Made by a program: the position numbers and the translations under genes
In this document: positions 37,917 through 60,938 of the stretch, in pieces
How positions within the stretch are numbered: the stretch's first letter is position 1
Layout: every line of letters begins with the position of its first letter
DNA from: a virus
Lineage: Duplodnaviria > Caudoviricetes
Reading direction: 5' to 3' (one strand)
Virus record (IMG/VR): IMGVR_UViG_3300013368_000005
Span: 1-64,000 of that record
Length of the DNA stretch: 64,000 nucleotides
Notes under the pieces: model-generated
Seen by the model: only the letters and a program-made list of their open reading frames with translations
The model's database searches: none
What the model was told of the DNA's origin: nothing

Positions 37917-38375
37917 TTATTTTATTTCATATACTATATATTCGTTCTCTTTAATTAAATTTATTTTCTGTTCAATTGCTAAATTTTCTAAATTATTTAA
38001 TGTTACACAATTTTTACATTTCATTTTATTATCTTCTTTATCTAATACAAGATATTCTTTATTATCACATTCGCATTGTCCATTCAACAACATTTTTAAT
38101 ATTCCATCCAAATCATCAAAGTTTTTATTAAATTCTTCTGTTTGCATGTCATAAAATTTATATTTCTTTTCATTTTCTCTTTGTTTACGACTTCCATAAT
38201 AATATTCACTATCATGAGCTATAGCATAAGTAGTGCCTTTATTGTCGTAATATAGTTCTATATTTCCTACATCAGCGGATGTAGAACCAATGATTTCTAA
38301 ATCATTTATCAATGTACCTAATTCTTCTACTTCCATCCCGTCTATTTCTCTAAATACACCTATTAATTTTTCCAT
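37917..38375 (-). CDS. early hypothetical protein with a Cys cluster
   Basis: likely start ATG 38375 (GGGAGAGATTAATTATG); early motif at 38410-38417; CEC...CKNC. Confidence 0.7.
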   Translation of the reverse strand: MEKLIGVFREIDGMEVEELGTLINDLEIIGSTSADVGNIELYYDNKGTTYAIAHDSEYYYGSRKQRENEKKYKFYDMQTEEFNKNFDDLDGILKMLLNGQCECDNKEYLVLDKEDNKMKCKNCVTLNNLENLAIEQKINLIKENEYIVYEIK

Positions 38376-38451
38376 AATTAATCTCTCCCTTTTATTTTTA
38401 TTCAATATTATAATATATAATTATAAATATATTTATCCTATCTGCTTATAA

Positions 38452-39111
38452 TTATATATTTCCATTATGATATACACTAGTACAAGAACAAGATATAATT
38501 TTACTATTTTGAGAGTATAAAATTATATCTGAAGGATCAGAAATACAAATGCAAATTATTTGATTATCAATCTTTTTGTGTATAGTTATTTTCTCAGTAA
38601 TTGATATTATATTGTCTTCTGTTGATATATTAATTGAATAAGGTGTTGTACCTGGTATATTATCATGTATAATAATTACAATAGATTTTTTGTCTGGTGA
38701 TACTACATATTCTATTCTTGGAGCTAATGAAAATGAAAAATAATTATATTTATATAAATCACCTATATTGTGTACTATAGTTAAAAAATGATCTTTTTTA
38801 CCATTAATGCGTATAAACTTATCTATTATAGCTATTATATCTTCAGCACGTTTCGATAATATCATTTCTATATTAAATTTACTATTCATACTTTGCATGA
38901 CTAATTCTATATTCATCATCAATCCTTTACATAATTCACTATCATTTTCTAACTCTGAAAAGTTATTTTCATACATACATAATTGTTTGTATATATTTTT
39001 TATTAGTAAAACGCCAAAGGTTCCTTCCCATTCTATAATACTATCTTTTAGAAAATCCTTTATTATATTATAATTATATTCTTTTCCTTGATAGCTTATT
39101 ACTTTTTCCAT
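38452..39111 (-). CDS. hypothetical protein (paralog family)
   Basis: ISYQGKEYNY; SD AAGGAG. Confidence 0.7.
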   Translation of the reverse strand: MEKVISYQGKEYNYNIIKDFLKDSIIEWEGTFGVLLIKNIYKQLCMYENNFSELENDSELCKGLMMNIELVMQSMNSKFNIEMILSKRAEDIIAIIDKFIRINGKKDHFLTIVHNIGDLYKYNYFSFSLAPRIEYVVSPDKKSIVIIIHDNIPGTTPYSINISTEDNIISITEKITIHKKIDNQIICICISDPSDIILYSQNSKIISCSCTSVYHNGNI

Positions 39112-39135: not shown

Positions 39136-39762
39136 CTATATAAGTTCCATATCTAATTTAATAGTGCATGTAGATAATTCATTTTCATAATACTCTTCCA
39201 GTAACTTTTCTATTGTCATTGGTATTATTTTAACTTGAAATTTATCTGAGATTATTTCAAGTATATCATCAGTTATTTCAATTCTAGAATTGAAAAACGA
39301 TATATTAACAATCCTCTGTGCAGAAAATTGATTTCTACTGAATAATGATATAAAATTATTTATATCAATGTCTATCATTGGAGATATAAATAATTTATAA
39401 CTAGTTGAATCTTTTGTTGTATATCGTATAAATAAACATTTACCATCTAAATGTTGCTTATGGTTACTTATCTTAAGATAATTATTTTCTTCCTCATTAT
39501 AAATACAAGAATCTATGTCTACATTATTAGAAACTCTATTTAAAGAATTTATTATTGTATTCATATATGCATTTATCATTATTTCATCACCTTTGATTAT
39601 ATCAAAATTATGAAGTCTTATAAATTTAATTATAGCATTTATGTTATTTTCGGTTTGTTGATGTTCGAATCTCCAATCTATTTTTTCTAAATCCTCTATC
39701 AATTTGTTTAAGTCATAATTCTTTCCTTTATAATTTATTATTTGTAATTTTGGTTTCTCCAT
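39136..39762 (-). CDS. hypothetical protein (paralog family)
   Basis: INYKGKNYDL; GGAGAGATTAATTATG. Confidence 0.7.
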   Translation of the reverse strand: MEKPKLQIINYKGKNYDLNKLIEDLEKIDWRFEHQQTENNINAIIKFIRLHNFDIIKGDEIMINAYMNTIINSLNRVSNNVDIDSCIYNEEENNYLKISNHKQHLDGKCLFIRYTTKDSTSYKLFISPMIDIDINNFISLFSRNQFSAQRIVNISFFNSRIEITDDILEIISDKFQVKIIPMTIEKLLEEYYENELSTCTIKLDMELI

Positions 39763-39782
39763 AATTAATCTCTCCTTTTATT

Positions 39783-40280
39783 TTAAAAATAAAATTTACC
39801 TTTATCTCTCATTAAATTTAATTTATTTATATATTTAACACTATGACTATATTGTCTTTGCAGTAGTTTTAATTCGCCTTTAATTTGATTATAATAAACC
39901 CTCATATCTTTTCTACTACCTTTAGGTAATGAATTTAATATTTTATATATTTCAAATTCATTTATCATTTTTTCTTTTATTAATATAGCCTTTATTTTTG
40001 CTTGTTCTTTCTGAATTAAAACTGTATAAGTTAAGAAATATAAAATATTTGCTATTTCGTCTTTTACAAATATTTTATATTTAATCATAAAAATTTGTTT
40101 CTTTCTATTTTTACACCATACAATAATATAATTTCCTTTTTCATTATACTCATAATGGATAGCATTTTTTGAATGATGTTTATCATTCAAATCTATCCAG
40201 AATGTTTTTACGATATGTGGTTTATAATTTTGTAAAGTATCAAATAATACTTTAAAATCAGATATGTTTCCATCAACCAT
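39783..40280 (-). CDS. hypothetical protein
   Basis: GGAGAGATTAATTATG start signature. Confidence 0.7.
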   Translation of the reverse strand: MVDGNISDFKVLFDTLQNYKPHIVKTFWIDLNDKHHSKNAIHYEYNEKGNYIIVWCKNRKKQIFMIKYKIFVKDEIANILYFLTYTVLIQKEQAKIKAILIKEKMINEFEIYKILNSLPKGSRKDMRVYYNQIKGELKLLQRQYSHSVKYINKLNLMRDKGKFYF

Positions 40281-40355
40281 AATTAATCTCTCCTTTTTTA
40301 TTTTTTAGAAATGTATTAGAAGATTAGAAATAATCTAATCTTCTTTTTAAATAAA

Positions 40356-40492
40356 TTAAAATCTCACGAAGTGAGATTTATCAGCCTCCCCTTCATGTCT
40401 TCTAAAACATGAATAATTTACATTTATATTGTATTTATAATAATGAATTATAAATTAATTCAATGTTTTATACTTTGTAAAAATGTACAAGC
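40356..40492 (-). repeat. left copy of a ~140-bp inverted repeat (late promoter + structured RNA)
   Basis: reverse complement shares GCTTGTACATTTTTACAAAGTAYAAAACATT and AAATCTCACTTCGTGAGATTTT with 42071-42216. Confidence 0.85.
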
Positions 40493-40496
40493 TCCC

Positions 40497-41288
40497 TTAT
40501 TTATAAAAGTCCATAGAGAAGACATAGCAATCTTCTCTATCTACAAGAACATAATCGTTCATAGATATCAGTACTCTATTTTCGTCAAATAATAACTTAC
40601 GTATTATATTATTTAATATTTGGCTATTAGTATTAAATTCACCATGAAGTTTTAAATACTCAAATGTATTTGGTTCTATATTGCTTTTTATTATTATATT
40701 AAACGATTCTTTCATAGCAGTTATAGCATCATCATCTGTAAATAATAAATCAGTAACCTTTCTAATATAAAAGTTTTCAATAGTTTCTTCCTCATATATA
40801 ATTGTATCTATATCTAATTTAGTCATAGGTTTTTTTATGTATAACCTATCTGAATCCATTAATGTCGTTAAAAGATTAGTATTATCATCCATATATTTTA
40901 ATGCTAAATTATATGCTATATTTTTTATATCTGCATTATTTTTTTGTCTATCATATTTATAATTTAAAAAGTATAATCCAGATATAATCTCGTTTATTAT
41001 AATTGATTTAATTAAAATCATTTTTTCATATTCGCTATGAATATTATGTGCATGATCAATAATATTATTTATATCTATTACTATAGTATTTACAAATATA
41101 CATGATAAATTTTTACACATATCATAATCTTTTTCATTAAATAATAGCTGTATTGGAATTGCTATATTTAATTCGTCCTTCACTGTTCTAAATACCTTTT
41201 GTGCTAATATTTTTAAATTGAACATAATATCCTCGTTCAATTTAAGTCTAGTTGCCTTTTCATGCTTAAGTTTAATAATGTTATTCAT
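40497..41288 (-). CDS. early hypothetical protein
   Basis: 263 aa; early motif at 41329-41336. Confidence 0.7.
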   Translation of the reverse strand: MNNIIKLKHEKATRLKLNEDIMFNLKILAQKVFRTVKDELNIAIPIQLLFNEKDYDMCKNLSCIFVNTIVIDINNIIDHAHNIHSEYEKMILIKSIIINEIISGLYFLNYKYDRQKNNADIKNIAYNLALKYMDDNTNLLTTLMDSDRLYIKKPMTKLDIDTIIYEEETIENFYIRKVTDLLFTDDDAITAMKESFNIIIKSNIEPNTFEYLKLHGEFNTNSQILNNIIRKLLFDENRVLISMNDYVLVDREDCYVFSMDFYK

Positions 41289-41441
41289 TTGTAATCCCCC
41301 TCAAAAATATATTTTTTTATTCAATATTATAATATATCATTGTATTATGCTTTACCATTTTTTCTATGTTCCTAGAAAAATGGTTATAATTATATATTAT
41401 AGTAATGAATAAATATAGAAAATATTAAAGGAGAGATTAAT

Positions 41442-42062
41442 ATGAATAAATTAATAGTAGATCCAAATAACTATAGTATAGTATCAATTTCAAATGAGAC
41501 ATCCTTTGAAGAAACAGAGACTGATAAACTATGTAGACATATACTAGGTTTATTTAGTGATCTTAAAGATTTAGAGATAGAAATTGATGTGGATAAATAT
41601 AACAATTTTGAAGCATGTTTTCGTACAGAAAAAATAAATAATAAAAAAAGACAATATAAATATATTATAAATCTTAGACCATTTCAAGACTGTTTTAAAA
41701 AGGGAAGCATTTGTAGAAATAGTAGAGAAATTATAGAAGGTTTGGAGATAGATGAACTTTTAAGAATAAATAGTATTGATGAAAAATATAAATTTAAAGT
41801 TTACTATTTATTTTATATATTACATGAAATTGGACATATTAAGCATTTTAATATAAATGAACGATATATCAATAAATTAAAATTGGCAGATGTGTCTCTA
41901 GATTGTTCATTGCGTCAAACTTATTATAATGCTAATAAGAAACATTCTTATACGATATATCAATATGGATTATTCGAATCCCAAGCAAATTTATTTGCAT
42001 TTAAATATTTCACATATATTTGGAATAATGTATTAAAAAATACAAATTTTCTTAATATGTAA
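41442..42062 (+). CDS. HExxH zinc-metallopeptidase-like protein (ImmA/IrrE-like)
   Basis: ILHEIGH...FESQANLFA; early motif at 41393-41400. Confidence 0.6.
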   Translation: MNKLIVDPNNYSIVSISNETSFEETETDKLCRHILGLFSDLKDLEIEIDVDKYNNFEACFRTEKINNKKRQYKYIINLRPFQDCFKKGSICRNSREIIEGLEIDELLRINSIDEKYKFKVYYLFYILHEIGHIKHFNINERYINKLKLADVSLDCSLRQTYYNANKKHSYTIYQYGLFESQANLFAFKYFTYIWNNVLKNTNFLNM

Positions 42063-42070
42063 AAATATAG

Positions 42071-42216
42071 GCTTGTACATTTTTACAAAGTACAAAACAT
42101 TTAAATATTTATATTTAAATTATATAAATTTAATATATAAGTATAATGATGTAAATATTCATGTTTCTACAATACATGATGAGAGGATTGTCAAATCTCA
42201 CTTCGTGAGATTTTAA
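42071..42216 (+). repeat. right copy of the ~140-bp inverted repeat
   Basis: see left copy; AACA-TTTAAA-TA at 42096-42107; hairpin at 42193-42214. Confidence 0.85.
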
Positions 42217-42230
42217 AGGAGGAATAAAAA

Positions 42231-42407
42231 ATGAAAGATTCTAAAATAAATCTAAATAATAAGTGGTTTACTATAGAACGAGATCATTACAAATGTAAAT
42301 TATGTAAATTCTATTATAAAATATACAATGAAACTGAACCCAGTAAATGTCCTAATTATAATCATAGTACTAAAGATGAACAAAAGAATATCAATAAAAA
42401 TAAATAA
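42231..42407 (+). CDS. 58-aa zinc-ribbon-like protein (not in the ORF track)
   Basis: SD AAGGAGG; YKCKLCKF...SKCPNYNH; terminator near 42416-42449. Confidence 0.6.
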   Translation: MKDSKINLNNKWFTIERDHYKCKLCKFYYKIYNETEPSKCPNYNHSTKDEQKNINKNK

Positions 42408-42498
42408 TATATTAAATAAACTAGGGAAACAATCTCTAGTTTATTTTTTGTGTATTTACATAAGATAACATTCATATAATTATGAAAGGAGTGATACT

Positions 42499-43311
42499 AT
42501 GAGAGATCCACAAAATATTCAACAAGTCGAATATAATGGAAATAAAATAAGTATAGTTAAAATGGACGATATACCTCCATTTGATATTCCAGACTATGAC
42601 CTATTAGATAGTAAAGAACTTAGTAAATATTTTGATGATATTGAAAGAAAAATAATAAGAAATTCATTTGAATATAGACAAATGGTGAATTTCTTAAGAG
42701 AAAATTTAGATATGAATAAATGTAGTTTCTATCAGAATGTAAATAATATAGATACATTTAAAATAAAAATACATTTACATCATGAACCATTTACATTATA
42801 TGATTTAGTTACTATAGTGTATAATAAGAGATTATTTTTCCATGAATGTTTAGAAGCAGAATTAGTAGCTAAAGAAGTTATGTACCTACATTACAAATTA
42901 ATGGTAGGTCTTATACCTTTAGCAGAAACTGTACATGAATTAGTACACAATAGCTATTTATTTGTTCCTATGGATAAAGTATTTGGAAATGTACAAGAAT
43001 TTATAAACATGTATGAAGATTTTATGTCTCCAGAACAATTAGATTTACTAGAAAGAAATCGACAATATACTAAAACTTACTGTGAAGAATTATCAAATAA
43101 CCATATCCTAAATAAAAACTATATATATTTAGATTTAACAGGTGCATATGATATTCCTACATTAGAAGAAGTAGTAGATTCTATGAATGCGAAGATAAAG
43201 GAGATAAAAGGGGATACCTCATCTATATATGTAGAAGAGAAGCCAAAAAAACAATTACAGCAGATGGTATCTTTTGGACAAGCACCTGATAGTGTTTTAC
43301 CTGATAAATAA
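42499..43311 (+). CDS. HNH-like protein, paralog A
   Basis: IHLHHEP...LIPLAETVHELVH; late promoter AACA-TTCATA-TA. Confidence 0.5.
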   Translation: MRDPQNIQQVEYNGNKISIVKMDDIPPFDIPDYDLLDSKELSKYFDDIERKIIRNSFEYRQMVNFLRENLDMNKCSFYQNVNNIDTFKIKIHLHHEPFTLYDLVTIVYNKRLFFHECLEAELVAKEVMYLHYKLMVGLIPLAETVHELVHNSYLFVPMDKVFGNVQEFINMYEDFMSPEQLDLLERNRQYTKTYCEELSNNHILNKNYIYLDLTGAYDIPTLEEVVDSMNAKIKEIKGDTSSIYVEEKPKKQLQQMVSFGQAPDSVLPDK

Positions 43312-43449
43312 AATCTTAAACTATTTATTATTATGCACCTATATATTATTTATATTTATTATTTTTTATATATTTTTTTACATGAATATAGATGACTAAA
43401 ATAGATATAATAAACATTATATTAATTAATCTATAAAGGAGGAATAAAA

Positions 43450-43947
43450 ATGGCAGATTTATTTACTAAAAGTATAATTGATATTTTAAATGAAGCATCA
43501 GATTGTGAAGCTTGTTCTAATGAAGAATTAGAACTTGATGGGGAATTAGAAGATGAATACGATGATGTAGAAGAATTAGAAGACGATATAGAATATACTG
43601 AAGAAATGGTTAATGTAATATTACAAGAATCAAATTCACAAACTAAATATTTGATAGAATATGATAATCTTTGCAAATTGATGGAGTCTAAACGCATGGA
43701 TATAAAGGAGGCTATGATATCAGTTTGTGAGCATAACCAAATTTCATTCAGTCACGCATACCTTGTATTAGAATCCGATGAAACTTTCGCAGAAGCATTA
43801 AATGAAGCAAAAGCATCAATAAAATATGCAAATAACCCGATAGATAAAACAAAAAATAAAAAGAAAGTAGGAAAGGTTTACGATACTTTCAAGGATATAA
43901 AGAATAAAGGAATAAAAGTATTAAAGAAAAAATCTAAGAAAAAATAA
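43450..43947 (+). CDS. acidic/basic late protein (prohead core or scaffold-like)
   Basis: LNEA/LQES motifs, acidic N-terminus, Lys-rich C-terminus; late promoter AACA-TTATAT-TA. Confidence 0.5.
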   Translation: MADLFTKSIIDILNEASDCEACSNEELELDGELEDEYDDVEELEDDIEYTEEMVNVILQESNSQTKYLIEYDNLCKLMESKRMDIKEAMISVCEHNQISFSHAYLVLESDETFAEALNEAKASIKYANNPIDKTKNKKKVGKVYDTFKDIKNKGIKVLKKKSKKK

Positions 43948-43964
43948 TTATATAACATATATTT

Positions 43965-44058
43965 AAAAAATATAATATTTTTTTATTTTCCTTTCTAAGT
44001 TATATTTAAACCAGATATATAAATGAATATAGTTTTCTATATTCATTTATATTATTTT
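43965..44058 (+). ncRNA. candidate small RNA 1
   Basis: AACA-TATATT-TA (43954-43965); anti-SD TTTCCTTTCT; 16-bp hairpin 44017-44052 with T-rich tail. Confidence 0.5.
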
Positions 44059-44080
44059 AATATCAATATAACAATAAAGT

Positions 44081-44166
44081 GAATTAGAAATTATTCATTT
44101 ATTCTATTTCATAATTAATCTCACTTCGGTAAAGTAGTATATCGTTATGATATACTACTTTTTATT
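44081..44166 (+). ncRNA. candidate small RNA 2 (anti-initiation-site)
   Basis: AACA-ATAAAG-TG (44070-44081); seed CATAATTAATCTC; 13-bp terminator 44131-44161. Confidence 0.55.
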
Positions 44167-44195
44167 ATTAAATAATAATGCTATAACATATAATT

Positions 44196-44287
44196 GAATA
44201 GCAAGTTTCATACTTAACCTCACCCTAAAGTTTTTATGATTTGAAATCAAATATAAAAGATAGAGATTAGTTTCTCTATCTTTTATA
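44196..44287 (+). ncRNA. candidate small RNA 3 (anti-initiation-site)
   Basis: AACA-TATAAT-TG (44185-44196); TTTCATACTTAACCTCACCCT; 15-bp terminator 44252-44287. Confidence 0.55.
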
Positions 44288-44310
44288 CTGTCTAAATATA
44301 TACATAATTA

Positions 44311-44318
44311 TATATTAT
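44311..44318 (+). promoter_or_regulatory. early promoter motif TATATTAT
   Basis: the same motif precedes about ten non-structural transcription units. Confidence 0.7.
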
Positions 44319-44371
44319 AATAATGAAATAAACAATAAATTAATATTAAAAAATTTAAAGGAGGAATAAGT

Positions 44372-44968
44372 ATGAAGTTTTATTTCGATACAGAATTTAC
44401 ACAATTAAGAAAAGAAACAACATTAATCTCTGTAGGTATATTATCAGAAGATTATTCATGTTCTTTTTATGCAGAATTAACAGATTTTAATCAATCTTTA
44501 TGTGATGATTGGATAAACAAAAACGTTATAGATAATTGTATCTATATATCTAGAAAAGGAAAACAACAATATATATTTAATAGAACTATAGAAAGCTCTG
44601 AAACAAATAATATATCAATATGTGGAAATAGAGAAGAGGTTTCGAAAGAATTAGTAAGATGGCTTTCGAGATTTAGTGAAATTCAATTTGTAGCAGATGT
44701 ATGTAATTATGATTTCGTATTATTAATAGATCTAATCACAAATGGTGGTACCGCATTCGACTTACCAGCGAAAATATCACCATATTGTCATGATATAAAT
44801 CAAGATATCGCTGATTTTCTATCTATATCTGATAGTGCAGCATTTGATGTAAATAGAGAAGAATTGGCTTTGAAAATAAATCCATATTTAAAATTAAATG
44901 AAAAGTCTAAACATAATGCATTATACGATGCAAGAATGTGTGCTATTGTTTACAAATCAATAAAATAA
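44372..44968 (+). CDS. DEDDh 3'-5' exo(ribo)nuclease (Rv2179c-like)
   Basis: YFDTEF, YDFVLL, HNALYDA. Confidence 0.8.
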   Translation: MKFYFDTEFTQLRKETTLISVGILSEDYSCSFYAELTDFNQSLCDDWINKNVIDNCIYISRKGKQQYIFNRTIESSETNNISICGNREEVSKELVRWLSRFSEIQFVADVCNYDFVLLIDLITNGGTAFDLPAKISPYCHDINQDIADFLSISDSAAFDVNREELALKINPYLKLNEKSKHNALYDARMCAIVYKSIK

Positions 44969-44988
44969 TATATAGGAAGTGAATCTAA

Positions 44989-45318
44989 ATGGGAATGTAT
45001 TTTTATAAAGGTGTACCTTTATTTAATTATCATACAAGATTTAAAGACACTGACATTACTGTATATAATGGATATATGGGTCATAACATAAAATGGTTAA
45101 TAAATGATTTAGAACAACAATTTACAAAATATAATAATAAAAATACAATATTAATTAATCCAGATAATGGAGAGATATGTGTATATGATAAAAATGAAAA
45201 ACAAGAATTAAAATTTCAAATAGAAGATAGCAAAGATTATCAAAATTTGAAAAATATTATTATAAATAATATGAATACAGTATGTATAGATCATACTGAA
45301 AATTATCAGCTATGTTAA
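44989..45318 (+). CDS. hypothetical protein
   Basis: 109 aa within an operon. Confidence 0.6.
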   Translation: MGMYFYKGVPLFNYHTRFKDTDITVYNGYMGHNIKWLINDLEQQFTKYNNKNTILINPDNGEICVYDKNEKQELKFQIEDSKDYQNLKNIIINNMNTVCIDHTENYQLC

Positions 45319-45371
45319 ATAAAGAACTTTAAGTTCTTTAATATAAAAAATGAAAATAGGGGGAGAAGGAA

Positions 45372-45683
45372 ATGAAAATATTTAATTGTCAAATCGTAAA
45401 AGGAGAAATAGTAGATATGTATGGAAGCGGTGTTGGTGAAGCACCCCAATATTTACTATTAGTGGAAGATAATGAGCATGAAGGATTAGACATAGAACCT
45501 TCAAAAATAATCTATTTAACAGAAGATTTAGCAGATGATGTAAAAGATATACATTATCAAATAATCGATGCTATGATAGATATGCTATCAGAAACAGAAG
45601 TAAATAATATAAGAATTAATAACTCTGAGTCAGCAATTGTTATAGGAGGTGCTGAAATTACGAGGAGGAAAAGTATTCTGTAA
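45372..45683 (+). CDS. hypothetical protein
   Basis: SD AGGGGGAG. Confidence 0.65.
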   Translation: MKIFNCQIVKGEIVDMYGSGVGEAPQYLLLVEDNEHEGLDIEPSKIIYLTEDLADDVKDIHYQIIDAMIDMLSETEVNNIRINNSESAIVIGGAEITRRKSIL

Positions 45684-45693
45684 GGAGAAAAAT

Positions 45694-46389
45694 ATGAATT
45701 ATGAAGACATATTTAATAAAAATACATTAAATATATTTACTGATGCTTCAATCAGTAAAATAGGAAATGAAACAGTTGGTTGTAGTGGTTGTATAGCCAC
45801 TACAACTGATAATTATGGAAAATCGATAATAGTAGATGAATTTTATTTTATAAATAGAGATACTACTAATAATGATTCAGAATTAAAAGCTATACATGCT
45901 GGTATATATAAAGCTATACAGTATAGAAATAATTATAAACAAATTAATTTATTCTCTGATTCTCTTGTTTCAGTTAAGGGATTAAAAGAATGGATATTTA
46001 ATTGGATTAATAATATGAAACTAGGAGTATTATACGGAAGTTCTGGAGAAGTGAAAAATCAAGAATTAATAAAATCTATTATATCGGATATAATAACTTC
46101 TCAATTACAAATTAAAATTTATCACCAAAAAGGTCATATAAAAATCAATGATTATGATGATTTATTAAAAGCTCAAAGAATATTTTTAAGGGAGAACAAT
46201 ATTACTGCTCCTTTAGAATTAATTAAAGATTTATGCTATTACAATGATATTGTAGATAATACAAGTAGACAACGATTATTAATATATGTAAGTGACAAAA
46301 CCCAATCACTTCAGTTACAAAAAAATCCTATAAGTCATCTTATAGATACAACAAGAATAAGGAATGAATATAGAATATTGGTTAAGTAA
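45694..46389 (+). CDS. rnhA: ribonuclease HI
   Basis: IFTDAS, TNNDSELKAI, LFSDS, HQKGH, NDIVD; ATG 45694 with SD AAGGAG. Confidence 0.85.
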   Translation: MNYEDIFNKNTLNIFTDASISKIGNETVGCSGCIATTTDNYGKSIIVDEFYFINRDTTNNDSELKAIHAGIYKAIQYRNNYKQINLFSDSLVSVKGLKEWIFNWINNMKLGVLYGSSGEVKNQELIKSIISDIITSQLQIKIYHQKGHIKINDYDDLLKAQRIFLRENNITAPLELIKDLCYYNDIVDNTSRQRLLIYVSDKTQSLQLQKNPISHLIDTTRIRNEYRILVK

Positions 46390-46403
46390 AGGAGATTTTT
46401 ATT

Positions 46404-46814
46404 ATGAAATCAGAAGACTTATATAAAATGGATAAAGCCTATGAATTATTAGAAGAATGTGAACCAACATATAAGAGCTTAGATATACTTATATGCTTAA
46501 ACAAACCATTATTTATTATGTATTTTTCTAGTATTGATATCTTATTAAATAATGATGAAAAATATAATCGGTTTAACACTGCTATTGATAATTTAACTAA
46601 ACCAATGTATGATATTTTATCAACAGTAGAGCATAGTATTGATAAAGAAAAAATAATGAATATGAAAGAACTTTTAAAGATATGTATAATACATGAAGTA
46701 TTATGTTTAGTATCATCTGAAGAAGTATTCGATAAGCCATCTTCTATGAATTGTTTAGATAATTTAGTAAATAGTATTTTTACTGGGTTTAGTAAAATAA
46801 AAGGTTATTTTTAG
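46404..46814 (+). CDS. hypothetical protein
   Basis: SD AAGGAG; hairpin at 46844-46871 downstream. Confidence 0.65.
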   Translation: MKSEDLYKMDKAYELLEECEPTYKSLDILICLNKPLFIMYFSSIDILLNNDEKYNRFNTAIDNLTKPMYDILSTVEHSIDKEKIMNMKELLKICIIHEVLCLVSSEEVFDKPSSMNCLDNLVNSIFTGFSKIKGYF

Positions 46815-46904
46815 CTTATATATATTTAAGAGAAATGTAAAATATAGGTTACTACAAAAGTAGTAACCTATTATTAATATTAAAAATAAAGGGAGAGATT
46901 AATT

Positions 46905-47726
46905 ATGAATAAACAACAATTAAAGCCGATGGTAAAATTTGAAGATAATTTACAGTATAAGAATACAACTTATACAGCAGAAACAATGTATAGTAAAATA
47001 GCACAAATTTATACTAATGAGAGATTATTAGAAAGTGGTTATCCAGAAAATGAATTAATGTTAAACCACAGGAGAATGTGTTTAGAACAAACTTTTAGAA
47101 ATAGAGTTCAATTTTTATTAATGCAAGTTATTGAGAGCTTTAATAATAAGGTATATGAAGTGAACTCTTTATTAGAAAAAACAAAAAGTGGATTCACAAT
47201 CTATAGGTCACATACAGGAACATTAAATGGATATATAGAGTCTAAATTTGATTATATATATGATGTATATAGTTATATGCATATATTAAATAATCCGATA
47301 ACAATTAGTGACATATCATTAACTTTATCTACACTGATGTATAATGCAATAAATATATCAGTGCAAATACCTGAAGACATGAGAGATATCTATTATAATG
47401 AGATGTATGAGGTTAAGTTTGATAAATATATGCATAATGTAGATCCAAATATATTATTATCATTTGAGCAATATAGGACAAACTTAAGTAAATACTTTAC
47501 AATGCTAATAATGAAAATGTTCGAGCAATTATGTGGAGAAGTAAAAACAATTTATTTAGATGCAGGATATCCTAGATATGCGGAACCTTGTAAGTTCTGT
47601 TCAGAAGAAGAACCATCTAGGGCAATACAATTACATCAACCAGTAAAAACAATTGAAGCAACAGAAGGAAAAAAACGTAGATATAGAAAACTAGATATTC
47701 CATTATTTGAAGAATTGGAAAAATAA
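46905..47726 (+). CDS. hypothetical protein
   Basis: GGGAGAGATTAATTATG start signature. Confidence 0.7.
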   Translation: MNKQQLKPMVKFEDNLQYKNTTYTAETMYSKIAQIYTNERLLESGYPENELMLNHRRMCLEQTFRNRVQFLLMQVIESFNNKVYEVNSLLEKTKSGFTIYRSHTGTLNGYIESKFDYIYDVYSYMHILNNPITISDISLTLSTLMYNAINISVQIPEDMRDIYYNEMYEVKFDKYMHNVDPNILLSFEQYRTNLSKYFTMLIMKMFEQLCGEVKTIYLDAGYPRYAEPCKFCSEEEPSRAIQLHQPVKTIEATEGKKRRYRKLDIPLFEELEK

Positions 47727-47759
47727 TTATCTGAATTTATTAAGGAGAATTAATTTACT

Positions 47760-48269
47760 ATGAATACACAAGTTTTATTTTCTAGTAATGATCAAACTTG
47801 GGAAACACCTTTAGAGGTGTTTTCCAAATTAAATAATGAGTTTAATTTCACATTAGATGTATGCTGCACCATGTATACTACTAAATGTAAAAAATTTTTT
47901 ACCCCAGAACAAAATGGATTAATTCAAGATTGGAGTAATAATGTATGTTGGATGAATCCACCTTACGGAACGGAGATACCTATTTGGATAGAAAAAGCTT
48001 ATAATGAAAGTTTAAAAGGAGCTATCGTGGTTTGCTTAATTCCAGCTAGAACAGATACAAAGTATTGGCATAATTTTTGTATGAAATCAGCTGAAATTAG
48101 ATTTATAAAAGGTAGATTAAAATTTGGTAATTCAAAAAATTCTGCACCATTTCCAAGTGCAATTGTGATTTTTAATAATAAAATAAATGAATTAACTGTA
48201 TCTAGTTATACAGTATATGGTAGATTAATTAATTTTAAGCTTCCAAAAATGGTAAGATACTTATATTAA
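47760..48269 (+). CDS. phage DNA N6-adenine methyltransferase (Dam-like)
   Basis: WETP, FTLDVC, WMNPPYG, LIPARTDT, RFIKGRLKF. Confidence 0.85.
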   Translation: MNTQVLFSSNDQTWETPLEVFSKLNNEFNFTLDVCCTMYTTKCKKFFTPEQNGLIQDWSNNVCWMNPPYGTEIPIWIEKAYNESLKGAIVVCLIPARTDTKYWHNFCMKSAEIRFIKGRLKFGNSKNSAPFPSAIVIFNNKINELTVSSYTVYGRLINFKLPKMVRYLY

Positions 48270-52466: not shown

Positions 52467-52494
52467 AAAGGATAGCGTTAAATCGCTATCCTTT
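52467..52494. terminator. bidirectional terminator
   Basis: AAAGGATAGCG-ttaaat-CGCTATCCTTT. Confidence 0.8.
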
Positions 52495-52942
52495 ATTTTT
52501 TATATGTTGCAACTTCCTGTCCATTGTTATTTTCAATAACATATTGCATTACTCTTAAATATACCTTCTCATTTATAAGTTCACCTAAACCGTCTTTATT
52601 ATAAATTAATGATAATTTATCGATCATAGCAGGTGATATTGTATTCAGTATCTTATAAGATACATGTTTAACTATTTCTGCTTCTGATTTAGAATCTATA
52701 TAATGTGTATCTTTAAATGCTTCATTCAAAGCCAAATATTCTAAAAAACATTCTTCTATTAAAGAAGGTAATAATGCAAAGTCTTCAGGTGTGATTTTAT
52801 AATTTACATTTATCATATAATAATCCTGTCTGATTTTTTTACTCTCATTTCTTGATGATACTATTAAATACCATGAAAAAGTTAATATAAAAATAATTGA
52901 AGTTATTAAAGCTAAAAATAATAATTGTTCTAAAATATTCAT
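52493..52942 (-). CDS. membrane-anchored late protein
   Basis: N-terminal TM helix. Confidence 0.65.
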   Translation of the reverse strand: MNILEQLLFLALITSIIFILTFSWYLIVSSRNESKKIRQDYYMINVNYKITPEDFALLPSLIEECFLEYLALNEAFKDTHYIDSKSEAEIVKHVSYKILNTISPAMIDKLSLIYNKDGLGELINEKVYLRVMQYVIENNNGQEVATYKK

Positions 52943-59954: not shown

Positions 59955-60626
59955 ATGACAAATGAATGGATTGAAAATGAATTAGACTTATATGAAAACG
60001 CACATAATATCAAACTTAATAAAGAAGAAATAAAAGGTGTTATAGAAATCTTTAAAGCACAAGGACACAGCGGTTTTAGTGCTAGTTATGTTATTGGTTA
60101 CATTAAGCGTCTTATATTAACTTATGATGAAACAAAAAGAGATTTAGAGAAAATGTTAAAATCAGAGGATAAAGATGGAATGCAAACACTTATAACAGAT
60201 AATATATTTGATATATACAATGCATGTGAAAATCTGAATGTATCTGAGACAGGATTAATACTATCCTTATTAGAGCATAAACCCCTTACTCCATTGACAG
60301 GCGAAGACAATGAATGGGGCGAATCATTTGATGATGATAATTTACAACAAAATAACAGATGCTCTGCAGTTTTTAGAGAGAAATATGATAATGGTCTTAT
60401 AATACCATATTATCTAGATGATACAGTATATTCTGATGATGGAGGATTATCATTTTATAGTACTAATAAATTTGGTAGAAAAGAAATATCTTTTCCGTTT
60501 ACAGTACCAGAAAAATCTGAATATGTATATTTGTATTATAGTGATGAAGAAACAAGACCTATAATATTAACTAATGCAGAGACTATTAAAAAATTACGTA
60601 ATATAAAAGAAACTGATTCAAAATAA
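59955..60626 (+). CDS. phage protein, PLTPLTGEDNEW family, paralog A
   Basis: strong similarity to 60962-61525. Confidence 0.7.
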   Translation: MTNEWIENELDLYENAHNIKLNKEEIKGVIEIFKAQGHSGFSASYVIGYIKRLILTYDETKRDLEKMLKSEDKDGMQTLITDNIFDIYNACENLNVSETGLILSLLEHKPLTPLTGEDNEWGESFDDDNLQQNNRCSAVFREKYDNGLIIPYYLDDTVYSDDGGLSFYSTNKFGRKEISFPFTVPEKSEYVYLYYSDEETRPIILTNAETIKKLRNIKETDSK

Positions 60627-60653: not shown

Positions 60654-60938
60654 ATGTATTGTGAAGAAAAAAAACATGAAATCGATAAGGCTATTAAAGA
60701 TATAGAAGATAAAGGTGGTATTACATGGAAAGCTGATGGAACCATGGATATACCAGATATACTACAAGTTAAAAAAGAATTTTATGAAAATGGTAATATC
60801 AAATCTAAAGAACACATGGGTACAAGAATAGAATATGATGAAGAAGGAAAACAAACTTATTTTAAAGATTTAGATGGCAATGAACTGTTTTTTGATAAAG
60901 AAGGAAATATCGTTAAACACAATCCAGCTGTAAAGTGA
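60654..60938 (+). CDS. small MORN/YD-repeat-like protein
   Basis: FYENGNIKS, EYDEEGK, FDKEGN. Confidence 0.55.
   Translation: MYCEEKKHEIDKAIKDIEDKGGITWKADGTMDIPDILQVKKEFYENGNIKSKEHMGTRIEYDEEGKQTYFKDLDGNELFFDKEGNIVKHNPAVK

What the first reader, a model, noticed from the sequence alone, without database searches (positions are those of the whole stretch)
44106..44128. sRNA 2 seed is the exact complement of the phage's shared initiation signature GAGATTAATTATG
Seen: CATAATTAATCTC (44110-44122) pairs 13/13 with the SD-spacer-AUG of four genes here: 46905(+), 40280(-), 39762(-), 38375(-). Pairing extends to 15-16 nt for 46905, 39762 and 38375 (G-U pairs in the last two). One-base variants precede 39111, 41442, 59955, 60654 and 10987. 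Inference: one late sRNA could silence a cohort of mostly non-structural genes by reading a common RBS barcode, giving an RNA-based early-to-late switch and explaining the conserved spacer.
Basis: partly seen in the sequence, partly recalled or inferred. Interest (0 to 1): 0.85.

Follow-up and report, generated by a model that had tools for sequence, protein, structure and literature searches.

The report
Candidate anti-start-site RNA in jumbo phage
In a gene-free gap of an uncultured AR9-like giant phage, a short stretch just before a transcription terminator is the exact mirror image of the ribosome-landing site shared by at least seven phage genes; it may be a small RNA that blocks their translation, but no transcript has been seen and a recombination scar remains about as likely.

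Summary
CATAATTAATCTC (44110-44122, +) is the exact reverse complement of GAGATTAATTATG. That 13-mer occurs 8 times in the 186.6-kb genome (0.06 expected): 7 at gene starts and once here.

For a small RNA:
- The complement reaches 15-17 nt for some targets.
- It lies 8 nt before a strong + strand terminator and is predicted unpaired.
- Duplexes with signature start sites are 8-12 kcal/mol stronger than with neighbouring genes' start sites.
- The gap holds three promoter-like motif/hairpin units with regular spacing.
- Mirror-image start sites are enriched in same-direction gaps (4 seen, 0.09 expected).

Against:
- The proposed late promoter ends in TG. All 49 well-placed late promoters here end in TA, although AR9 itself uses both.
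- The only relatives found are near-identical or about 46% identical. Neither keeps the seed or the signature.
- The 19-mer reads as two repeated sequences overlapping in AATCTC, which fits a recombination junction.
- The target genes are not cleanly early.
- No RNA data exist.

Verdict: a translation-blocking RNA is the best single reading (about 0.38), with a non-functional scar close behind (about 0.33). This scan has noted similar unverified candidates in other jumbo phages.

The parts
44110..44122 (+). Seed CATAATTAATCTC, the exact reverse complement of the shared start signature GAGATTAATTATG
44106..44130 (+). Stretch between a weak 5' hairpin and the terminator. The 13-nt seed within it has a mean unpaired probability of 0.86 in the 90-nt RNA, 0.70 in the 206-nt RNA and 0.42 as the tail of the upstream gene's mRNA
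44131..44170 (+). Intrinsic terminator: 13-14 bp stem, 3-5 nt loop, then TTTTTATTATT. There is no U-run on the minus strand, so it works for the + strand only
44070..44081 (+). AACAATAAAGTG, an AR9-type late-promoter-like motif with G at the predicted start. It fits the AR9 consensus but not this genome's own TA-only usage
44117..44128 (+). 12-mer AATCTCACTTCG, shared with the 5' arm and loop of the terminal hairpin of a four-copy element. It overlaps the seed by AATCTC
43954..43965 (+). Consensus late promoter AACATATATTTA (next base A) 7 nt after the stop of the upstream gene (unit 1). A transcript reading through hairpin 1 would carry the seed
44017..44052 (+). Hairpin 1: perfect 16-bp A/T stem. 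Its loop is flipped (TTTT to AAAA) in a 99.5% identical strain
44185..44196 (+). Unit 3 promoter-like motif AACATATAATTG, again ending in TG
44206..44223 (+). Unit 3 mirror-image start site TTTCATACTTAACCTCAC, 16/18 identical to the unit 2 seed region. Its best complement is 10 nt, to the start site of the adjacent gene 44372
44252..44287 (+). Hairpin 3: perfect 15-bp stem, usable on either strand
44104..44112 (-). Minus-strand reading of the seed's 5' end: ATG-AAA-TAG, a two-codon frame behind a weakened ribosome-binding sequence (start-site score 11.4; median for genes 15.2)
44155..44211 (-). Minus-strand 18-codon frame (MKLAIQLYVIALLFNNKK) with a start-site score of 15.1. It is antisense to unit 3 and its stop lies in hairpin 2
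46895..46907 (+). Target signature at gene 46905-47726 (15 nt contiguous complement)
40278..40290 (-). Target signature at gene 39783-40280
39760..39772 (-). Target signature at gene 39136-39762
38373..38385 (-). Target signature at gene 37917-38375. An early promoter starts transcription 28 nt upstream

Best explanation
The 424-nt gene-free gap is transcribed on the + strand. One RNA ends at the terminator at 44131-44161. It is either a roughly 90-nt RNA starting at G44081 behind AACAATAAAGTG, or a roughly 205-nt RNA from the consensus late promoter at 43954 that reads through hairpin 1. Just 5' of its terminator this RNA exposes CAUAAUUAAUCUC.

That stretch pairs without a mismatch with the last three bases of the ribosome-binding sequence, the spacer, the AUG and up to four more bases of seven phage mRNAs. 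It pairs with a one-base bulge with four or five others. Pairing would cover the start codon, keep the 30S subunit off and so lower translation of that set of genes once the RNA accumulates.

Shown: the complementarity, its specificity, the terminator, the predicted open state of the seed, and that the phage uses AR9-type promoters. Inferred: that the RNA is made, when it is made, and that pairing represses translation.

The exact 13-17 nt match looks like a copy of a start region in inverted orientation rather than slow convergence. The RNA would then have arisen by inverted duplication of its target site.
For: - Eight exact copies of the 13-mer against 0.057 expected. This is the only one not at a gene start.
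- Contiguous complement of 13-17 nt to 7 start sites. Sixteen start sites reach 10 nt or more, against 7 of 606 windows inside genes.
- Duplex energy separates signature from non-signature start sites by 8-12 kcal/mol.
- The seed is 8 nt from a + strand-only terminator and mostly unpaired.
- Late promoter motifs are real here, peaking 30-49 nt before start codons. The RNA polymerase beta subunit is about 32-35% identical to those of AR9/PBS1-type phages.
- All three hairpins have an AACA-N6-T-purine motif 61-67 nt upstream. Two of the genome's five intergenic TG-type motifs sit at exactly these positions. AR9 late starts use A or G (PMC5312081).
- No other large gap in the genome has three perfect hairpins of 13 bp or more.
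- Mirror-image start sites are enriched in same-direction gaps: 4 observed, 0.09 expected.
- A second gene-free unit with a consensus late promoter (G000 141543-141725) carries a 14-nt contiguous complement to another gene's start site.
- A distant syntenic relative (L017) has a consensus late promoter, about 65 nt and a strong terminator in the same gap.
- No sign of a decayed gene.
Against: - G at the predicted start occurs in 0 of 49 well-placed late promoters here, while 27% of all motif hits genome-wide end in TG. TG motifs are not enriched in intergenic DNA (ratio 0.66, against 5.0 for TA).
- No relative of intermediate distance was found. The 99.5-100% identical strains are uninformative, and the roughly 46% relatives have a gap of only 186-193 nt or less, no seed and no signature start site.
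- By position, L017's unit matches unit 1, not unit 2.
- The 19-mer is two repeated sequences overlapping by AATCTC: the start signature and the 12-mer of a four-copy element. That is what a microhomology junction looks like.
- Pairing stops before the GGAG core of the ribosome-binding sequence.
- Start-site 13-mers in general recur about 157 times elsewhere in this A/T-rich genome, so only the specific multi-copy match is significant.
- The target genes are a mix of temporal classes.
- No Rfam family matches.
Confidence: 0.38

Rival explanations
1. Non-functional scar. The 19-mer is a junction left by recombination between two repeated sequences that share GAGATT/AATCTC: a signature start region in inverted orientation and the hairpin of the four-copy element. 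The three hairpins are stacked terminators insulating the upstream operon from the promoters of gene 44372. Any pairing with start sites is a by-product.
For: - The identity to the start signature and the identity to the element 12-mer overlap exactly in the shared hexamer.
- A 13-17 nt perfect match is more typical of copying than of an evolved seed.
- This gap is about 230 nt longer than in relatives, so units 2 and 3 are lineage-specific additions.
- The promoter is off the genome's own consensus.
- No conservation is seen.
- A hairpin loop flip between strains shows these palindromes do rearrange.
Against: - Both patches of identity are very short (17 and 12 nt) and no donor is identifiable beyond them, so two junctions within 20 nt would be needed.
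- It does not explain the regular spacing of motif to hairpin in all three units.
- It does not explain the enrichment of mirror-image start sites in gaps.
- It does not explain why the copy sits unpaired right before a + strand-only terminator.
Confidence: 0.33
2. The minus strand is the functional one. The site is the start of a tiny minus-strand frame (ATG-AAA-TAG, a lambda bar-like two-codon minigene). Alternatively, together with the neighbouring 18-codon hydrophobic frame, it is part of a small antisense gene cassette or a type I toxin-antitoxin-like pair in which the + strand RNAs are cis-antisense partners.
For: - The minus-strand site at 44211 scores 15.1, the median of real gene starts, and opens an 18-codon hydrophobic frame. 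The site at 44112 scores 11.4.
- A third mirror-image site at G000 141634 opens a 20-codon frame.
- 'Hairpin, then start site' is the usual gene junction in this genome.
Against: - There is no early or late phage promoter motif on the minus strand of the gap. Only a weak sigma-70-like match was found.
- Hairpin 2 has no U-run on the minus strand.
- The GGAG core is missing at 44112 and the frame has two codons.
- An open frame of 18 codons has a chance probability of about 0.2 in this composition (my estimate).
- No homologues were found in relatives.
Confidence: 0.12
3. Cis-acting element. The seed acts only within long + strand transcripts, pairing with a start site on the same mRNA. One candidate is the variant signature of gene 41442 at the head of the operon that ends here. 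For unit 3, the candidate is the start site of the adjacent gene 44372 in read-through RNA, as with the long early transcripts of T4 gene e.
For: - Gene 41442, first gene of the + strand cluster ending in this gap, carries the one-base-deleted signature behind an early promoter.
- Unit 3 and the 44372 start region form a 35-nt, 71% complementary inverted repeat.
Against: - Complementarity between upstream regions and their own start sites is no more frequent than in shuffled gene pairings.
- The cis partner pairs more weakly (-14.8 kcal/mol) than the trans targets (-19 to -22).
- The partners are 2.7 kb apart.
Confidence: 0.07

Closest known systems
c4 antisense RNA of phages P1/P7 and sar RNA of phage P22 (as reviewed in PMC12197685)
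   Same: A short phage-encoded RNA that pairs around the ribosome-binding site of a phage mRNA and blocks translation initiation. c4 and sar are listed there as trans-acting, 77 and 68/69 nt.
   Different: Those RNAs act on one gene (ant) in temperate phages and control immunity or lysogeny. Here one seed would match a start region shared by 7-12 otherwise unrelated genes of a lytic AR9-like jumbo phage. There is no sequence or structural similarity, and no Rfam match.
C/U-rich-seed small RNAs of low-GC Gram-positive bacteria that mask ribosome-binding sequences (RsaE/RoxS, LhrC; from my own knowledge)
   Same: An unpaired pyrimidine-containing seed next to a terminator, targeting translation start regions of several mRNAs.
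   Different: Those seeds pair with the G-rich core shared by nearly all genes. This one avoids the GGAG core and pairs with the spacer and AUG, which would give it class specificity. It is phage-encoded and aimed at phage genes.
Late transcription units and late antisense RNAs of Bacillus phage AR9 (PMC5312081, PMC5449584)
   Same: The same promoter grammar: early ATATATTAT-N6-G and late AACA-N6-T(A/G) with the start at the last base. AR9 also has late promoters that drive antisense RNAs.
   Different: The AR9 antisense RNAs reported are cis-antisense to genes. No trans-acting RNA mirroring start sites is described there. In this genome G-starts are otherwise unused.
Lambda bar minigenes (two-codon frames behind a ribosome-binding sequence; from my own knowledge)
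   Same: The minus strand reads a ribosome-binding-like sequence, then ATG, one sense codon and a stop.
   Different: No minus-strand promoter, a weakened ribosome-binding sequence, and no evidence of expression.

Membership tests
AR9-type late (non-virion RNA polymerase) transcription unit | Promoter AACA-N6-T(A/G) with the start at the last base (PMC5312081) | tested here: inconclusive
   AACAATAAAGTG at 44070-44081 fits the AR9 consensus. In this genome, however, 49/49 well-placed late promoters end in TA and TG motifs are not enriched in intergenic DNA. A fully consensus promoter lies 116 nt further upstream at 43954.
AR9-type late (non-virion RNA polymerase) transcription unit | The phage encodes the multisubunit RNA polymerase and uses these motifs genome-wide | tested here: met
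   The beta-subunit homologue is 32-35% identical to those of PBS1, Staphylococcus S6 and Listeria LPJP1. The late motif peaks 30-49 nt before starts: 44 hits against 6 in the opposite-strand control. Early ATTATATATTAT-N6-G motifs are present.
Trans-acting RNA that masks ribosome-binding sites (c4/sar-like in mechanism) | A discrete, stable, non-coding transcript exists | not testable with these tools
   No sequencing run was listed. Only the predicted terminator and the absence of a + strand reading frame are available.
Trans-acting RNA that masks ribosome-binding sites (c4/sar-like in mechanism) | Accessible seed complementary to the translation start region of target mRNAs | tested here: met
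   13-17 nt perfect complement covering the AUG in 7 genes. Mean unpaired probability of the seed is 0.86. Duplexes are -19 to -22 kcal/mol.
Trans-acting RNA that masks ribosome-binding sites (c4/sar-like in mechanism) | Seed and target conserved or co-varying in relatives | tested here: inconclusive
   Only 99.5-100% identical strains and relatives about 46% identical, lacking both seed and signature, could be found.
Trans-acting RNA that masks ribosome-binding sites (c4/sar-like in mechanism) | Seed-dependent repression of translation | not testable with these tools
   Needs an experiment.
Decayed 5' end of a minus-strand gene | Intact minus-strand orthologue at the same place in relatives, or residual protein similarity | tested here: not met
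   The matching gaps in L017, L018, L019, L021, L022, L026 and L027 hold no minus-strand gene. A blastx of the gap against all phage and relative frames gives nothing below E = 1.
Type I toxin-antitoxin pair (Ibs/Sib-like layout) | Small hydrophobic frame with its own promoter on one strand and an overlapping antisense RNA on the other | tested here: inconclusive
   For unit 3, an 18-codon hydrophobic frame with a good start site lies antisense to the + strand unit, but there is no minus-strand phage promoter motif and no homologue. For unit 2, the finding itself, the frame has two codons, so the feature is not met.

The most novel reading that the evidence does not exclude
An AR9-like jumbo phage tags a set of its genes with a private 13-25 nt translation start 'barcode'. 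It also makes a small late RNA, one of an array of three, whose exposed seed reads that barcode and shuts the whole set off at once. That would be an RNA-based temporal switch acting on translation rather than transcription. The seed would have arisen by inverted duplication of the target site, much as plant microRNA genes arise.
Probability: 0.3. Interest if true: 0.8.

Novelty: new variant of a known kind. Interest (0 to 1): 0.55.

Why it matters
Jumbo phages of the AR9/phiKZ type are thought to time their gene expression through two phage RNA polymerases and their promoters. Control of phage genes by phage small RNAs at the translation step is almost unexplored in lytic phages.

A single RNA that recognises a start-site tag shared by a set of genes would add a layer of temporal control. 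It would explain why unrelated genes keep an identical 20-25 nt start region. It would also give a natural template for programmable silencing of phage genes.

If the site is only a recombination scar, it still shows that conserved start regions and repeated hairpins act as recombination substrates in these genomes.

Tried and rejected
- **Rfam:** no match at gathering thresholds over the window, and only noise at E up to 5 over the gap. No tRNA genes.
- **DNA searches for relatives:** nothing in the phage collection. No exact matches in viral contigs for the seed-plus-flank or the element hairpin.
- **Protein-guided searches with the RNase-like neighbour:** viral and metagenome contigs gave only relatives 26-49% identical, in different contexts.
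- **Sequencing runs:** none was listed for 40000-48000 and no RNA holder was listed, so expression could not be examined.
- **Tandem duplication of the three units:** TRF found nothing. Local alignments of unit 2 with unit 3, and of unit 2 with the four-copy element, are collinear but no better than shuffles. Only unit 1 against unit 3 is marginal (3/500).
- **General cis mirror-image start sites upstream of genes:** no enrichment over shuffled pairings, so a genome-wide cis mechanism was rejected.
- **Energy test with mononucleotide-shuffled seeds:** weakly discriminating, with 89 start sites at -12 kcal/mol or better against a mean of 48 and a maximum of 112. It was not used as evidence.
- **Units 1 and 3:** they show no exceptional complementarity to start sites, so the 'three anti-start-site RNAs' reading is firm only for unit 2.
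- **Earlier scan notes:** look-ups by place among relatives and by sequence returned nothing relevant.

Full report
**What the window is.** The window is the first 64 kb of a 186,590-bp viral record with 26.7% G+C. Its large RNA polymerase beta-like protein is 32-35% identical to those of Bacillus PBS1/AR9-type, Staphylococcus S6-type and Listeria LPJP1 jumbo phages.

The genome uses AR9-type promoter grammar. AACA-N6-TA peaks sharply 30-49 nt before start codons on the coding strand, with 44 hits against 6 in the opposite-strand control. It is 5-fold enriched in intergenic DNA. Motifs of the type ATTATATATTAT-N6-G precede another set of genes. These match the AR9 early consensus AAATATATATTAT-N6-G and late consensus AACA-N6-T(A/G), in which the last base is the start (PMC5312081; PMC5449584).

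**The observation.** CATAATTAATCTC at 44110-44122(+) is the exact reverse complement of GAGATTAATTATG. The window holds five exact copies, and no further matches appear when one substitution is allowed. Shuffles give 0.64. The genome holds eight copies against 0.057 expected, or 0.005 in intergenic DNA.

Seven copies end in the ATG of a gene. They are the 3' part of a longer shared start region, AAATAAAAGGAGAGATTAAT(T)ATG. This region also occurs with single-base insertions or deletions at 39111, 41442, 59955 and 10987, and with two changes at 60654. Every genomic match to the 18-nt consensus with up to 3 mismatches is a gene start except 44112(-).

Contiguous complementarity reaches 15 nt at 46905 and 16-17 nt at two genes outside the window, 105203(-) and 142117(+). 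By hand-reading, G-U pairs extend 39762 and 38375 to 16. The one correction is that the 'one-base variants' are insertions or deletions, not substitutions.

**Anatomy of the gap.** The stretch 43948-44371 is the second longest gene-free gap my gene calls leave in the genome and the longest between two same-strand genes. Among the gaps examined it is the only one with three perfect hairpins of 13 bp or more, at 44017-44052, 44131-44161 and 44252-44287.

Hairpin 2 is a textbook terminator for the + strand only. It is followed by TTTTTATTATT and has no U-run on the other strand. The seed lies 8 nt before it.

In a 90-nt RNA (44081-44170) the fold is a weak 5' hairpin, an open stretch containing the seed, then the terminator. 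The mean unpaired probability of the seed is 0.86. It is 0.70 in a 206-nt RNA from 43965 and 0.42 as the tail of the upstream gene's mRNA.

Duplexes with signature start sites are -19 to -22 kcal/mol. With the indel variants they are -10.7 to -16. With the two neighbouring genes' start sites they are -6.8 and -11.7.

**Promoters.** Each hairpin has an AACA-N6-T-purine motif 61-67 nt upstream, at 43954, 44070 and 44185.

Only the first is a consensus promoter for this genome. All 49 well-placed late promoters end in TA, usually TAA. TG makes up 27% of all motif hits genome-wide yet none of the well-placed ones, and TG motifs are not enriched in intergenic DNA.

On the other hand, two of the genome's five intergenic TG motifs sit exactly here, at the same distance from a hairpin as the consensus motif of unit 1. 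AR9 itself starts late RNAs with A or G.

So a discrete unit 2 transcript is plausible but not established. Failing that, the seed would still be transcribed in RNA from 43954 or from the upstream gene, if hairpin 1 (a pure A/T stem) leaks.

**Is there a wider pattern?** Mirror-image start sites, scored with a matrix built from all gene starts, are enriched in gaps between same-direction genes. Four are seen against 0.09 expected from shuffles. They are at 44112, 44211, G000 141634 and G000 161637. The last is simply a terminator stem and tail.

The one at 141634 lies in a second gene-free unit. A consensus late promoter at 141543 is followed by about 135 nt and then a strong terminator. Its mirror-image stretch has a 14-nt contiguous complement, about 20 of 22 overall, to the start site of gene 52493-52942(-).

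Several other orphan consensus late promoters are followed by hairpins. The phage therefore seems to have a set of gene-free late units.

By contrast, units 1 and 3 of this gap show nothing exceptional against start sites. Complementarity between a gene's upstream region and its own start site is at background level.

**Origin.** The seed overlaps by AATCTC a 12-mer, AATCTCACTTCG (44117-44128). That 12-mer is otherwise found only as the 5' arm plus loop of the terminal hairpin of a four-copy element with a late promoter. It is expected 0.008 times and seen 5 times.

The 19-mer thus reads as start signature (inverted) plus element hairpin, joined in a shared hexamer. That is the pattern of a microhomology junction, and it favours an origin by copying. 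It does not settle function. Both identity patches are very short, no donor continues beyond them, and a copied inverted target site is also a good way to create an antisense seed.

**Relatives.** The upstream gene product has an identical copy on two Logan contigs. One is 100% identical and one 99.5% over 6-8 kb. In the gap, the latter differs only by a flipped loop in hairpin 1 and one base at 44180, the same density of change as in the flanks.

The next relatives are about 46% identical in protein. They are syntenic but have gaps of 186-193 nt or less. They contain no minus-strand gene, no seed and no signature start site.

L017 has a consensus late promoter, about 65 nt and a strong terminator in the gap. 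By position this corresponds to unit 1. Units 2 and 3 are therefore lineage-specific additions, and conservation cannot be tested with the data at hand.

A blastx of the gap also finds nothing.

**Targets.**
- 38375, 41442 (variant) and 144442 (variant) sit directly behind early promoters.
- The 41288-to-38375 minus-strand cluster is headed by an early promoter.
- 10987, a virion structural protein, follows a late promoter.
- 40280 follows the late-promoter element.
- 142117 follows a late-promoter gene.
- Of the eight signature and variant genes I scanned, only 10987 and 59955 matched a family; 59955 is Tad3-like.

'Mostly early, non-structural' is therefore only loosely supported.

**Verdict.** The feature is real and non-random. 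The best single explanation is a + strand small RNA, or an RNA tail, that masks the start codon region of genes carrying the signature (about 0.38). A non-functional recombination scar among stacked terminators follows at about 0.33. Minus-strand tiny frames or a toxin-antitoxin-like layout come next at about 0.12, and a purely cis role at about 0.07.

In mechanism it resembles c4 of P1/P7 and sar of P22 (PMC12197685) and the anti-ribosome-site small RNAs of Gram-positive bacteria. It differs in being aimed at a private tag shared by many genes of a lytic jumbo phage.

Earlier notes of this scan describe similar, equally unverified candidates in other jumbo phages. I treat those as leads, not evidence.

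Noticed in passing
window 42096-42225(+) and 40350-40467(-); L030 126-246; L031 155-286: A four-copy element: a late promoter (AACATTnAAnTA), about 95 nt, an internal hairpin, a purine tract and a terminal hairpin AAATCTCA-CTTCG-TGAGATTT. All four copies keep one open frame ending ...L(S/I)NLTS-stop inside the hairpin. It has no ribosome-binding sequence, so it may be an RNA element rather than a peptide gene. The two Logan contigs carrying this region begin inside the 42194 copy.
   Followed up: partly
L029 144-326 (G000 141543-141725): A second gene-free unit with a consensus late promoter and a strong bidirectional terminator. Its + strand carries CATAAATAAATTTCCACCTTAAA, a 14-nt contiguous (about 20/22) complement of the start site of window gene 52493-52942(-). 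The minus strand opens a 20-codon frame.
   Followed up: partly
window 44155-44211 (-): An 18-codon hydrophobic frame (MKLAIQLYVIALLFNNKK) with a start site as good as a median gene. It is antisense to 'unit 3' and its stop lies inside hairpin 2. This could be a small antisense gene, a type I toxin-like peptide, or chance.
   Followed up: partly
window 44033-44036 vs L015 1843-1846: The loop of hairpin 1 is TTTT here and AAAA in a 99.5% identical strain. That is a loop flip of the palindrome, which shows these hairpins rearrange in nature.
   Followed up: no
whole genome (49 sites listed): Late promoters in this phage are strictly AACA-N6-TA, mostly TAA, 25-50 nt before start codons. The G-start allowed in AR9 is never used at genes.
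   Followed up: yes
window 59955-60626 (+): The protein matches Pfam Tad3 (a type I Thoeris inhibitor, E = 2.5e-23), and the gene carries the one-base-deleted signature start site.
   Followed up: no
window 44342-44376 with 44207-44241: The start region of gene 44372 and the unit 3 segment form a 35-nt, 71% complementary inverted repeat 100 nt apart. A 10-nt exact core of this kind occurs by chance in about 3% of such pairs.
   Followed up: yes
L019 5634-5760: In one distant relative, the gap before the RNase-like gene holds a + strand 30-codon hydrophobic frame behind AAGGAGG. The content of this gap is evolutionarily fluid.
   Followed up: no
window 44372-44968 (+): The gene just after the gap is a PHROG 'RNase H' and weak Rv2179c-like 3'-5' exoribonuclease homologue. 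It has both an early and a late promoter directly upstream.
   Followed up: no
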